Source of the DNA: Heptranchias perlo
Taxonomy: Eukaryota
Assembly: GCF_035084215.1 (NCBI RefSeq)
Contig: NW_027139268.1
Coordinates: forward strand, 62,001 to 126,000
Reading direction: 5' to 3'
Length of the DNA stretch: 64,000 nt
Shown: positions 2,648 to 58,070 of the stretch, in pieces
Layout of the letters: every line of letters begins with the position of its first letter
How positions within the stretch are numbered: the stretch's first letter is position 1
Translations under genes and position numbers: made by a program
Notes under the pieces: model-generated
Told to the model about the DNA's origin: nothing
Databases searched by the model: none
What the model saw: only the letters and a program-made list of their open reading frames with translations

Positions 2648-2761
2648 CTCTCCGTTGTCTTTTCCAGATGACTATTCCGATTATCACCACTATAACAGCC
2701 AGCGCCGCAATCACTGATCCGATAATAATTCCCAGATTGGATTCCCTGTTTTCCGGTCTTT
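2648..2761 (-). CDS. MHC class I-like gene A, exon 5 (connecting peptide, TM, basic stop-transfer)
   Basis: 114 nt, phase 1; ERPENRESNLGIIIGSVIAALAVIVVIIGIVIWKRQRR; tttcag| acceptor and G|GTAAG donor. Confidence 0.9.
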
Positions 2762-2833
2762 CTGAAACACATTTCAATAATATCAGGATTGTTTCTCTCT
2801 GTTCCAAGAACCATTCCCAGTTCTGTATTGATT

Positions 2834-3008
2834 GGGGGAAATTTTAACCTAACCCACCCGTGGGGAAACTGACGAGATCGGGTGTAACGCTGGTTTTACT
2901 CCCCGCCCCGATTTTACTGCCCATTGAAGTCAGTGTTCAGTAATATTGGTCAGAATCCAGCCCATCCCATGGGTCTCTCGCCCGGTGAGTCAGGTTAACA
3001 TTCCCCCC
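2834..3008. mobile_element. Short MITE-like element with imperfect terminal inverted repeats (paralog ~30433-30608)
   Basis: Starts GGGGGAAATTTTAACCTAACCCACCCG, ends CCGGTGAGTCAGGTTAACATTCCCCCC; related dispersed copy at 36610-36792. Confidence 0.55.
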
Positions 3009-3511
3009 GATGTCTGTGTGTCTTTTCCTTGTCCCATCCCCAGGGTTACATTGTACAGTCCAGGAGTCAGCGTCACTGATGGTTCTCACAGATCGGTTTC
3101 TATTCTCTCTATTTATATCTTATTTCTTAAAGGCAAATCATGTTTAACCAACCACAACCCGGCTTTATTTCCGGGTTTAACATCGGTGTGTAAAAAGTCC
3201 AGGCTTCCCACTGGGAATGCAAAGTCTGAAAATTTTGTGGTTGCAACCCAAAAAAACAATTATTTTCAACTCCCACCCGCCCCCAACCCACCCGTTGTTG
3301 GGGGTTAAAATCACCCCCAGAGAGTGGGGATAAAGGGAATGTGCTCTGATTGGTGGGATGTGAGAAGTGGTGTTCCCCAGGGATCTGGACTGGGGCCTCA
3401 GCTTTTCACCATATTTATCAATGATTGGATGACGGAACAGAGTGAGTTGTATCTCCAAGTTTGGAGATGACACTAAGTTAGGGGACACAGTAAAGGGACA
3501 CAGACAGATTA

Positions 3512-4264
3512 TAAAAACTGATTATAAATACAGAATATAAAAACAGGGAGGTATTGCTGCTGTTATATAAGGTATTGGTGAGACCGCACCTGGAATACTG
3601 CATACAGTTTTGGTCTCCATACTTAAGAAAAGACATACTTGCTCTCGAGGCAGTACAAAGAAGGTTCACTCGGTTAATCCCGGGGATGAGGGGGCGGACA
3701 TATGAGGAGAGGTTGAGTAGATTGGGACTCTACTCATTGGAGTTCAGAAGAATGAGAGGCGATCTTATTGAAACATATAAGATTGTGAAGGGGCATGATC
3801 GGGTGGATGCAGTAAGGATGTTCCCAAAGATGGGTGAAACTAGAACTAGGGGGCATAATCTTAGAATAAGGGACTGCTCTTTCAAAACTGAGATGAGGAG
3901 AAACTTCTTCACTCAGAGGGTGGTAGGTCTGTGGAATTTGCTGCCCCAGGAAGCTGTGGAAGCTACATCATTAAATAAATTTAAAACAGAAATAGACAGT
4001 TTTCTTGAAGTAAAGGGAATTAGGGGTTTTGGGGAGCGGGCAGGAAATTGGACATGAAGCTGAGTTCGGATCGGTCAATGCCCTGTGGGTGGCGGAGAGG
4101 GCCCAGGGGCTGTGTGGCCGGGTCCTGCTCCTACTTCTTGTGTTCTTTAGATTTGTGGTTTGGATCAGATCAGCCATGATCTTATTGAATGGCGGAGCAG
4201 GCTCGAGGGGCCGATTGGCCTACTCCTGCTCCAATTTCTTATGTTCTTATGTTCGTATGTTCTT
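3512..4264 (+). mobile_element. 5'-truncated young CR1 LINE nested in an older CR1; gene A only
   Basis: ORF2 C-terminus LYKVLVRPHLEYCIQFWSP; (TTCTTATG)n tail; empty site ACAGATTA|AATGAGTGG at ~31662. Confidence 0.92.
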
Positions 4265-5136
4265 AAATGAGTGGGCAAAACTATGGCAGATGAAGTTCAA
4301 TGTGAGTCACATTGTGAGGCACAGGCTCGATGGGCCGAATGGTTCTATGTGGGGAAATTGAAGATCATCCATTTTAGATCGGAGAAAGACAAATCAGGAT
4401 ATTTTCTGAATGGTGATAGACCAGGGGCTGTAAAGGAGCAAAGGGATTTGGGTGTCCAAGTACACAAATCACTAAAAGCGAGTGTGCAGGTAAAAATTAA
4501 TCAAAAAGCCCAATGGAATGTTGGCCTTTATCTCGGGGCCTGGATTACAAAGTGAGGAAGTGATGCTTCAGTTGGACAGAGTCTTGGTCAGAATCCAACT
4601 GGAGAATTGTGTTCAGTTCTGGGAATCGCACCTTATGTAAGATATATTGTCCTTGGAGGGGATACAGTGCAGATTCACCAGACTGATACCGGGGCTTAGA
4701 GGGTTAAATTCTGAGGACAGGTTACAGAAACTTGGCTTGTATTCCCTGGAATATAGAAGGGTGAGGGGTGATCTAAATGAGGGGTTTAAAATGATAAAGG
4801 GATTCGATAGGGTGGAGACAGAGAAACTATTTTCTCTGGTGGGGAATCCAGAACGAGGGGGCACAATCTTAAAATTAGAGCCAGGCCATTTAGGAGTGAA
4901 ATCAGAAAGCACTTTTTCCACACAAAGGGGAGTGGAAATCAGGAAATCTCTCCCCAAAAGGCTGTGGGTGCTGGGAACAACTGAAAATTTCAAGATAGAT
5001 GTATGTGGGGTAAGGGAATCAAGGGATATGGATCAAAGGAGGGGAAATGGAGGAGAGGTACAGATCAGTCATGGTCTCATTGAATGGCAGAACAGACTCA
5101 AGGGGCCGAATGGCCTGCTCCTGTTCCTATGTTCCG
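4265..5136 (+). mobile_element. Older degenerate CR1 3' portion (paralog ~31440-32545)
   Basis: Frameshifted WQMKFN / QRDLGV / RFTRLIPGL motifs and CR1-type 3' end. Confidence 0.85.
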
Positions 5137-5189
5137 TACACACACATACACACACACAGACACACACACACACACACACACAGACAAAA

Positions 5190-56518: not shown

Positions 56519-56559
56519 ATTTACCTGACGAAAGAGGAAGCCTCCGAAAGCTTGTGAAT
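56519..56559 (+). ncRNA. Minimal hammerhead motif, second copy, one stem II mismatch
   Basis: Same motif but AGAGG instead of GGAGG. Confidence 0.65.
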
Positions 56560-57372
56560 TTAAAATAAAATTGCTGGACTATAACTTGGTGTTGTAAAAT
56601 TGTTTACAAAGGTTCAATAGTGTGTGGGAGGGTGAGAGAGGGTCAGGGGGGGAATTAGAGAGTGTGACAGGTTTAATCGTGTGTGGGAGGGTGAGAGAGG
56701 GTCAGGGGGGAATTAGAGAGTGTGACAGGTTTAATAGTGTGTGGGAGGGTGAGAGAGGGTCAGGGGGGGAATTAGAGAGTGTGACAGGTTTAATAGTGTG
56801 TGGGAGGGTGAGAGAGGGTCAGGGGGGGAATTAGAGAGTCTGACAGGTTTAATAGTGTGTGGGAGGGTGAGAGAGGGTCAGGGGGGAATTAGAGAGTCTG
56901 ACAGGTTTAATAGTGAGTGGGAGGGTGAGAGAGGGTCAGGGGGGGAATTAGAGAGTCTGACAGGTTTAATAGTGTGTGGGAGGGTGAGAGAGGGTCAGGG
57001 GGGGAATTAGAGAGTCTGACAGGTTTAATAGTGTGTGGGAGGGTGAGAGAGGGTCAGGGGGGGAATTAGAGAGTCTGACAGGTTTAATAGTGTGTGGGAG
57101 GGTGAGAGAGGGTCAGGGGGGGAATTAGAGAGTGTGACAGGTTTAATAGTGTGTGGGAGGGTGAGAGAGGGTCAGGGGGTGAAACAGTCACAAATACATC
57201 AACAGCGGGAAAATTGAAAGTTTACTTACTGAAAGACTCACGGAGGAGAGCGATCAGAGACTTCAGAAGCTGTGAAAATAAAAACAGAATAAAAATAGAA
57301 TGTGAGATTAAACCATCTCCCAGCATTCACTAAACCACCTCAGACAGGAAGAATATTCACTGAGGGGAGGAA

Positions 57373-57697
57373 CCCCCCCACCCCGAGTCAGTGAGTCCAG
57401 GGGAGGGGGTGAGGGACTGGAGGGGGTCCCTCCTGTGTAACTCCCCCCACCCCGAGTCAGTGAGTCCAGGGGAGGGGGTGAGGGACTGGAGGGGGTCGCT
57501 CCTGTGTAACTCCCCTACCCCGAGTCAGTGAGTCCAGGGGAGGGGGTGAGGTACTGGAGGGGGTCCCTCCTGTGTAACTCCCCCCACACCGAGTCAGTGA
57601 GTCCAGGGGAGGGGGTGAGGGACTGGAGGGGGTCCCTCCTGTGTAACTCCCCCCACCCCGAGTCAGTGAGTCCAGGGGAGGGGGTGAGGGACTGGAG
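57373..57697. repeat. 69-bp minisatellite, ~4.7 units (about 2 units at 25540-25657)
   Basis: CCCCGAGTCAGTGAGTCCAGGGGAGGGGGTGAGGGACTGGAGG... Confidence 0.9.
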
Positions 57698-57867
57698 ATG
57701 TTCACAGTCTGATCTCTGTTTCCTGATTGATCCATTCTTCCTCATTAATGGATCAAACTGTCTGATGGACATTTTGTTTCTCTGCGCAGTTAATGTTCAA
57801 ATCAGATTGTAAAATAATTCACCAACACATCAAAACAATGACTCGGATTATCCGAGCTGTTGTTTTT

Positions 57868-57890
57868 TCAGTGTAAGAACGGACTGAACT
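57868..57890 (-). CDS. MHC class I-like gene C, predicted exon 7 coding part
   Basis: Identical to 25828-25850. Confidence 0.55.
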
Positions 57891-58037
57891 CTGGAAATAC
57901 AGATTAAATATTTCACATTGTTTCTCTGCTGGATCGAGAATCTCCTTCTGGAGAACTCCCCGGAGAATGAAATTCGACAACTTAATGTCCCTTATTATCC
58001 ATTTCATCCCCAACAATCTGTCCCCTCCGTCACTTAC

Positions 58038-58070
58038 TGCCTGCTGTTGTGTAAATCGGACTTGTTCGGT
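58038..58070 (-). CDS. MHC class I-like gene C, exon 6 (cytoplasmic) DRTSPIYTTAG; upstream exons lie beyond 64000
   Basis: Paralog of 25998-26030 (+32040) with one I>T change; same splice sites. Confidence 0.78.

What the first reader, a model, noticed from the sequence alone, without database searches (positions are those of the whole stretch)
2648..58070. Tandem array of at least three nonclassical class I genes in ~28-32 kb units
Seen: the same order of exons, minisatellites and old TEs repeats with offsets of 27600 (TM, A to B), 32288 (leader, A to B) and 32040 (tail exons, B to C). Both window ends fall in the same intron, so the array extends on both sides. Inference: a recently expanding, birth-and-death multigene family, probably copy-number variable.
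Basis: partly seen in the sequence, partly recalled or inferred. Interest (0 to 1): 0.7.

Follow-up and report, generated by a model that had tools for sequence, protein, structure and literature searches.

The report
Shark UEA class Ib tandem array
This is a real, spliced tandem run of four intact shark immune genes (nonclassical MHC class I, likely the known UEA family) whose ligand-binding exons include old types shared across sharks while the rest of each gene is nearly identical, likely through sequence exchange between copies that also reaches the first exon of the distantly related neighbour gene UDA.

Summary
Observation confirmed. The window holds gene A (no tail exons), all of B and the tail of C; offsets 27,600, 32,288 and 32,040 are exact. 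The contig adds Z: four intact tandem copies 27.6-32.3 kb apart, plus an inverted copy D with no transmembrane exon. Database hits name the sharpnose sevengill shark. The genes lack the alpha2 disulfide and four of nine peptide anchors, have shark-only multicopy relatives and share a contig with UDA and UFA: most likely the published UEA lineage.

'Recently expanding, birth-and-death' is only half right. Z/A is young, but alpha1 of A/B and of C belong to two old sublineages shared with distant sharks, while alpha3, leader and transmembrane exons are 98-100% identical within the species: concerted evolution, known from mammalian class I. Extra: UDA (26% identical groove) carries the same leader exon and about 450 bp upstream, and tracks species-specific leader variants in 7 of 10 sharks. 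I found no paper on this but could not read the two key ones. Contig depth weakly hints at collapsed extra copies.

The parts
19517..19568 (-). Gene A leader exon (17-aa signal peptide)
12336..12596 (-). Gene A alpha1 exon
   Evidence: Pfam MHC_I, E 5e-5, below the curated cut-off as a half domain
8866..9141 (-). Gene A alpha2 exon, no cysteines
8472..8750 (-). Gene A alpha3 exon (C1-set Ig)
2648..2761 (-). Gene A transmembrane exon; its tail exons lie left of the window
51805..51856 (-). Gene B leader exon, 100% identical in DNA to the leaders of A, Z, D and the neighbour UDA
51857..52371 (-). 5' UTR and likely proximal promoter block of B, shared with A (19569-20083), Z, D (98-99.6%) and UDA (about 96%)
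41563..41823 (-). Gene B alpha1 exon (78% protein identity to A, 56% to C; basic patch in the helix)
36258..36533 (-). Gene B alpha2 exon, both disulfide cysteines absent
   Evidence: spliced to alpha3 in RNA-type contigs
35865..36143 (-). Gene B alpha3 exon
30248..30361 (-). Gene B transmembrane exon
   Evidence: joint 30361 to 35865
25998..26030 (-). Gene B cytoplasmic exon 1 (33 bp, skipped in some RefSeq isoforms)
25396..25435 (-). Gene B cytoplasmic exon 2 with stop codon
58038..58070 (-). Gene C cytoplasmic exon 1; the rest of C lies right of the window
57230..57269 (-). Gene C cytoplasmic exon 2
5187..8337 (+). LINE (endonuclease + reverse transcriptase remnants) in the alpha3-TM intron of A; same site in B and Z, absent from C
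32608..35756 (+). LINE copy in the alpha3-TM intron of B, 94.5% identical to the copy in A
55021..56609 (+). Penelope-like element (weak GIY-YIG match, 474-bp inverted ends) downstream of C; also downstream of A, absent downstream of B and Z
21528..21960 (.). Old interspersed repeat (about 70% copies on many large contigs) downstream of B; also downstream of Z, absent downstream of A and C
2..2644 (.). 21-bp and 89-bp minisatellites in the TM-tail intron of A
26130..30244 (.). The same minisatellite pair in B
58170..64000 (.). The same minisatellite pair in C, running past the window end
14502..18528 (.). 19-bp minisatellite in intron 1 of A (209 copies)
44129..50909 (.). 19-bp minisatellite in intron 1 of B (352 copies)

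Best explanation
The window is the middle of a four-gene tandem array of intact, spliced, nonclassical MHC class I genes of a shark, likely the UEA lineage, in which old ligand-binding sublineages sit in a gene frame that is likely homogenised by unequal crossing-over and gene conversion. Shown: gene structure, splicing, class I fold, loss of the alpha2 disulfide and of four of nine peptide-anchor residues, two trans-species alpha1 clades, near-identity of leader, alpha3, TM and tail, and a mosaic of TE markers that makes A look Z-like in its 5' part and C-like in its 3' part. Inferred: misaligned units exchange sequence wherever they are alike, selection keeps each groove type distinct, and the exchange also covers the leader and 5' region of the adjacent UDA gene, which would tie their expression together. 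Inferred and untested (about 50%): the proteins pair with beta2-microglobulin and show a fixed, non-canonical ligand held by the kept C-terminal pocket (T143, K146, W147) with a remodelled N-terminal end, to innate-like T or NK-type receptors, one ligand class per sublineage.
For: Array and intact frames. Splice joints alpha2-alpha3 and alpha3-TM (CT..AC) in 3 of 3 RNA-type runs and not in the DNA run. Fold: pLDDT 80.8, best matches chicken BF2 and shark class I 6lup. No alpha2 with both cysteines, 0 of 81. Anchors. Relatives: 84 of 85 hits are named, all sharks (11 genera), none a ray or chimaera, though ray proteins are in the database. White-shark hit LOC121291255 is listed as MHC-Ib in the cluster near BRD2 and B2M on chr19. 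Neighbour = UDA orthologue; PMC10751288 places multicopy UEA with single-copy UDA and UFA. Alpha1: C is 72-76% identical to other sharks but 51-57% to its own paralogues; alpha3 97-100% within vs at most 87% outside; nearest neighbour same species 33 of 78 (alpha1) vs 65 of 81 (alpha3). Trees. One clade of all five own alpha1 rejected, p-AU 0.023. dS contrast. Mosaic markers. UDA leader identical to an own array leader in 7 of 10 sharks; summed differences 5 vs 14.7 shuffled, p 1e-4; ray UDA leaders differ at 8-10 of 17. RNA-type contigs join the leader to UDA alpha1 in 2 of 3 runs.
Against: The name UEA is indirect: the defining paper was not held, and the nurse-shark query that matches these genes by eye is labelled 'Gcirratum_UCA' in the supplement of PMC10751288. 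One clade of the four tandem alpha1 was not rejected at 0.05 (p-AU 0.060); trees are quick, 86-92 columns. The own alpha3 clade has only SH-aLRT 82. The leader shuffle ignores phylogeny, most UDA leaders come from automatic gene models, and the leader-UDA joint has only 28-29 letters on its short side. All runs laid are one sample, and 'RNA' is the tool's guess. No TAP, PSMB, class II or B2M was found on this contig (100 of 197 candidate frames scanned), so MHC linkage here rests on orthologues. Ligand and receptor are wholly untested.
Confidence: 0.75

Rival explanations
1. One reading: a young family expanding by plain duplication and loss, all copies recent.
For: Non-coding blocks are 95-98% identical between units; Z and A differ by one residue each in alpha1 and alpha2; species- or family-specific expansions exist in other sharks' alpha1; D lacks TM.
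Against: Alpha1 of A/B/Z groups with Pristiophorus, Heterodontus, Mustelus and Carcharodon (100*), and C with a second multi-species clade (98*); alpha1 dS about 1.0-1.2 vs alpha3 0.02-0.05 in the same gene pairs. One age cannot give both. It holds for Z/A and partly B only.
Confidence: 0.12
2. Assembly artefact: allelic haplotypes joined in tandem.
For: The contig is a short (453 kb), repeat-rich piece. The 3' halves alternate in type (Z and B alike, A and C alike) at offsets of 55-58 kb, as a doubled two-gene block would. Z and A are 98% alike.
Against: Z, A and B are three different versions of one 5' type, more than one diploid locus can hold. C is a separate old sublineage. DNA contig depth on the array is above, not below, that of UDA (21-50 vs about 3). 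Other sharks also have tandem copies (fused models P0004, P0005, P0126). At most Z/A could be a false pair.
Confidence: 0.07
3. The shared leader of UDA and the array reflects strong selection on an ancestral signal peptide, or an orphan leader left by partial duplication, not ongoing conversion.
For: The leader is well conserved among all sharks (mean 0.9-2.7 differences between species); ray UDA has a related leader, so the module is old.
Against: Identity is 100% in DNA, includes 40 bp of intron and 96% over 450 bp upstream; species-specific variants are shared (Pristiophorus, Hemiscyllium, Chiloscyllium punctatum, Heptranchias); the leader is spliced to UDA alpha1 and stands in the nurse-shark UDA record QGX07421.
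Confidence: 0.12

Closest known systems
Shark MHC class Ib lineage UEA (Almeida et al. 2021, J Immunol 207:824; paper not read, known here from passages of PMC10751288 and PMC12562908 and from recall)
   Same: Multicopy, sharks only among hits, in one cluster with UDA and UFA, divergent anchors, several sublineages.
   Different: Only five copies assembled here, against 13 MHC-Ib entries at 79.6-80.2 Mb in white shark (not all need be this family). UDA and UFA are not adjacent here as in the Stegostoma and Rhincodon fused models. Name not confirmed against labelled UEA sequences.
Spiny dogfish UCA (AF515705, sequence seen in PMC10751288 Supplemental File 10)
   Same: Alpha2 also lacks both cysteines and starts alike (by eye); the supplement labels the nurse-shark match 'UCA'.
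   Different: Dogfish UCA alpha1, alpha2 and alpha3 are plainly far from these genes by eye, whereas the nurse-shark query is close.
Concerted evolution of mammalian class I (HLA-E / H2-Qa1 / RT-BM1; PMC1403747, abstract and three passages seen)
   Same: Groove residues keep old orthology while alpha3 is homogenised within species.
   Different: Here whole 27-32 kb units with introns and minisatellites are homogenised, and the exchange with UDA is confined to the leader and 5' block; UDA alpha3 is not converted in the orthologues seen.
Shark UDA (Gici-UDA, QGX07421)
   Same: Neighbour on the contig; same leader exon and 5' block.
   Different: One hit per species, present in rays, keeps the alpha2 cysteines; alpha1+alpha2 only 25.7% identical to gene B.

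Membership tests
MHC class I heavy chain | Leader, alpha1, alpha2, alpha3 (C1-set), TM and tail exons in frame | tested here: met
   B and C frames equal RefSeq proteins P0094 and P0096; model matches class I structures.
MHC class I heavy chain | Pairs with beta2-microglobulin at the cell surface | not tested
   No complex prediction was run; inferred from the family.
Classical class Ia (shark UAA) | Nine conserved peptide-anchor residues (list recalled) | tested here: not met
   A, B, Z keep 5 of 9 (123, 143, 146, 147, 171); C and D keep 5 of 9 (59, 123, 143, 146, 147). Positions mapped from the alignment to 8jqt_A.
Classical class Ia (shark UAA) | Alpha2 disulfide C101-C164 | tested here: not met
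   V and L at these places in Z, A, B, C; D keeps C164 only; both present in 0 of 81 family domains.
Classical class Ia (shark UAA) | Single gene next to TAP and PSMB8/9 | tested here: inconclusive
   Multicopy; no such gene among 100 of 197 frames scanned on the contig, a weak test for short exons.
UEA | Multicopy family | tested here: met
   Five copies in the assembly; many per species in other sharks.
UEA | Clustered with single-copy UDA and UFA (PMC10751288) | tested here: met
   UDA orthologue directly downstream of Z; UFA-like gene at contig 256-263 kb (matched to the labelled UFA by eye).
UEA | Cluster lies in the MHC near BRD2 and B2M | tested here: inconclusive
   Shown for the white-shark relative LOC121291255; this contig carries no marker gene found.
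UEA | Present in sharks, not in rays or chimaeras (recalled) | tested here: met
   84 named hits of 85, all sharks; word-based search, so absence in rays is not proven.
UEA | Three sublineages and a hydrophobic groove (recalled) | tested here: inconclusive
   Own alpha1 need three separate places on the tree but could not be matched to published names; hydrophobicity not measured, and B has a basic alpha1 helix patch.
UEA | Groups with labelled UEA reference sequences | not testable with these tools
   No sequence labelled UEA was found: 0 hits for 'uea' in the supplement; paper not held.
UCA (dogfish) | Close similarity to AF515705 | tested here: not met
   Far in all three domains, by eye only; shares the cysteine loss.

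The most novel reading that the evidence does not exclude
Sharks keep one leader-plus-promoter cassette identical across two class Ib lineages that are only 26% alike (UEA and the older UDA), by continuing gene conversion under selection, so that they are switched on together or so that the shared signal peptide serves as a common self badge, as class Ia leaders do for HLA-E; and the true array holds ten or more collapsed B-like copies.
Probability: 0.15. Interest if true: 0.65.

Novelty: new member of a known kind. Interest (0 to 1): 0.36.

Why it matters
The array itself is an expected feature of the shark MHC class Ib region and is already annotated as class I-like in RefSeq. Its value is comparative: a hexanchiform shark shows that at least two groove sublineages predate the split of the main shark groups, which points to conserved ligands worth finding. 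It also warns that high identity between units does not date such arrays. The shared first exon with UDA gives a clean, testable case of conversion between distant immune genes and a possible route to co-regulation.

Tried and rejected
Segment 21528-21960 looked like an extra exon: no Pfam match, and it is an old interspersed repeat; rejected. Long RefSeq tails (P0006, P0093, P0098) and fused models (P0089, P0007, P0130, P0137) run into intron, TE or neighbour sequence; treated as read-through or model artefacts, not as double-headed proteins. Classical class I: rejected on anchors, disulfide and copy number. CD1-like UFA or UGA: rejected; 9ch4_A is no closer than bird class I and the labelled queries differ. 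More copies on other contigs: none above 70% identity. Marker genes on the contig: none found in 100 of 197 frames. No RNA holder is on record as RNA; runs X5-X8 are guessed RNA. Depth as copy number: only a hint, the tool warns against it. The structure model says nothing on ligand (pTM 0.59, rmsd about 9 A to class I structures over the whole chain). The two Almeida J Immunol papers were not held. Paper searches showed no listing on a leader shared by UDA and UEA; only listings were seen for most hits. No earlier scan note near this place or on this protein.
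Full report
Observation. The same minisatellites recur in order. Exons lie on the minus strand and match Pfam MHC_I and C1-set. Gene A lacks only its tail exons in the window, B is whole, and C shows two tail exons.

Surroundings. The window is G000:C1101:62001-126000. I fetched the whole 453,415-base contig. From left to right it holds: a divergent class I gene (alpha1 and alpha2 at 13.8-15.4 kb, leader at 23.2 kb), copies Z, A, B and C in tandem on the minus strand, an inverted copy D at 233.7-243.2 kb, and two further divergent class I genes at 256-263 and 419-435 kb. Z, A, B and C have GT-AG sites at every exon and 348-codon frames; leader spacing is 30,074, 28,215, 32,288 and 27,585 bp; no TM or tail was found in the 12.8 kb after D's alpha3. 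Genome searches found no other close copy. RNA-type contigs show the alpha2-alpha3 and alpha3-TM joints in 3 of 3 runs, the DNA run does not; all runs are one sample.

Identity. The alpha2 of B found 85 proteins; 84 are named and all are sharks of 11 genera; the 100% hit is labelled Heptranchias perlo, and B and C equal RefSeq models. The alpha2 cysteines are replaced, and 0 of 81 family domains have both. Mapped on 8jqt_A, each copy keeps 5 of the 9 recalled anchor residues, always T143, K146 and W147, and always loses Y7, Y/R84 and Y159. The model of B is a class I fold. The left neighbour is 74% identical in alpha1 to nurse-shark QGX07421, whose alpha1 reads as 'Gici_UDA' in Supplemental File 10 of PMC10751288. 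That paper (outline, passages and parts of the supplement seen) describes one Ib cluster with single-copy UDA, multicopy UEA and UFA, flanked by BRD2 and B2M; the white-shark relative LOC121291255 is in that cluster. PMC12562908 (passages seen) names UBA and UEA as the two expanded shark families. The supplement's nurse-shark query that matches these genes by eye is labelled UCA, while dogfish UCA is distant though also cysteine-less. I read the label as an older working name; this is inference. PMC6523485 (passages seen) added nothing. The UEA and UDA papers were not held, and what I say of UEA's sublineages and range is recalled.

Age. I cut domains from 80 non-Heptranchias proteins (79 of the 85 hits plus P0126; left out the three own models, P0012, P0082 and P0088; domains under 85% coverage and one UDA alpha2 dropped; some rows are isoforms of one gene) and added the five own copies. 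In alpha1, C is 72-76% identical to its best hits in other sharks but 51-57% to its own paralogues; A is 62-71% to other sharks. In alpha3 the five copies are 97-100% alike and at most 87% to others. The nearest neighbour is of the same species for 33 of 78 alpha1, 35 of 81 alpha2 and 65 of 81 alpha3. Trees agree: two starred multi-species alpha1 clades, species- or order-level grouping in alpha3 with weak support for most forks. One clade of five own alpha1 is rejected (p-AU 0.023); one clade of the four tandem ones is not (0.060). In DNA, alpha1 dS is 1.0-1.2 between C and A/B/Z, 0.14 between B and A/Z, 0.04 between Z and A; alpha3 dS is 0-0.05, TM is 100% and tail regions 99.6% identical. 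This is the pattern reported for HLA-E and Qa1 in PMC1403747 (abstract and three passages seen).

How the units exchange. Presence markers split the units differently along the gene. Downstream and in the TM side of intron 4, Z goes with B (889-bp block, old repeat) and A with C (410-bp block, Penelope-like element); in the LINE and groove exons, A goes with Z; an intron 2 insertion joins B with D. A thus looks like a Z-type 5' part on a C-type 3' part, the expected product of unequal crossing-over (inference). Three distinct 5' versions (Z, A, B) argue against alleles of one locus.

Shared first exon with UDA. The leader upstream of UDA is 100% identical in DNA to those of Z, A, B and D, with 40 bp of intron at 100% and 450 bp upstream at 95.5-96.2%, although UDA and B share only 25.7% of alpha1+alpha2. 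RNA-type contigs join that leader to UDA alpha1 in 2 of 3 runs (short side 28-29 letters). In 7 of 10 sharks the UDA leader equals an own array leader; summed differences from the commonest own leader are 5 against 14.7 when species are shuffled (p 1e-4, phylogeny ignored); the exceptions are C. plagiosum, Heterodontus and Rhincodon; three ray UDA leaders differ at 8-10 of 17 places. Continuing conversion is the simplest reading. Seven searches showed no listing on it, but the unread papers and their supplements may report it.

Copy number. In DNA run X1, contigs on UDA have depth 2.9-4.2, those on the array 21.4-41.8 and the leader 49.9. Two variant letters in deep contigs (30801, 36808) match no assembled copy; the other 8 of 10 checked match a paralogue. 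This hints at collapsed copies, but the tool warns that such depth is no copy number, and it is one run.

Function. Shown: expressed, membrane-anchored class I-fold proteins with a kept C-terminal pocket, a changed N-terminal pocket and no alpha2 disulfide. Alpha1 dN is below dS between sublineages, as expected for conserved ligands. Inferred, about even odds: each sublineage shows a fixed non-canonical ligand to innate-like lymphocytes. B has gained a basic helix patch relative to A, which may mean a new, acidic partner; untested.

Verdict. A real array of a known kind, better described as old grooves in a homogenised frame than as a young expansion. Interest 0.36.

Noticed in passing
G000:C1101:23186-23793 (L003, L041) vs window 51760-52371: UDA shares the leader exon and about 450 bp of upstream sequence with the array genes; seen across sharks.
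   Followed up: yes
G000:C1101:233275-243243 (L018-L019): Inverted copy D has leader to alpha3 but no TM or tail within 12.8 kb; RefSeq model P0008 ends just after alpha3. Truncated duplicate or secreted form. Keeps C164 only.
   Followed up: partly
G000:C1101:141345-142035 (L009): Gene C keeps only about 66 bp of the shared upstream block and has a second leader fragment 600 bp further up; it may use a different promoter.
   Followed up: no
window 52122-52280 (contig 114122-114280): RefSeq isoform P0025 splices the tail of C into the upstream block of B; read-through of this kind may explain fused gene models in several sharks.
   Followed up: partly
G000:C1101:1-13812: UDA alpha3 and TM are not on this contig, though an RNA-type contig runs on from alpha2 into further sequence; RefSeq model P0129 is cut at 205 aa.
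   Followed up: no
G000:C1101:256052-263093 and 419381-435499: Two more class Ib genes: a UFA-like gene and a member of a family with 12 equal-scoring alpha2 hits on small contigs.
   Followed up: partly
G000:C1050, C1654, C1161, C1057, C526: Another class I family, several copies on C1050; lineage not identified, UBA is a guess.
   Followed up: no
window 55021-56609: Penelope-like element with 474-bp inverted ends and a 301-codon frame with a weak GIY-YIG match, inserted in the 59-bp minisatellite.
   Followed up: partly
window 41600-41660: Alpha1 helix of B carries a basic run absent from A and from the other-species orthologues shown; 19 of 86 alpha1 residues differ from A.
   Followed up: no
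window 44076-50945: The 19-bp minisatellite gives a stop-free frame of 2,289 codons; a by-product of the repeat, not a gene.
   Followed up: no
L012:6573-6923: Zinc-knuckle frame between C and D, probably part of a retroelement; observed only.
   Followed up: no
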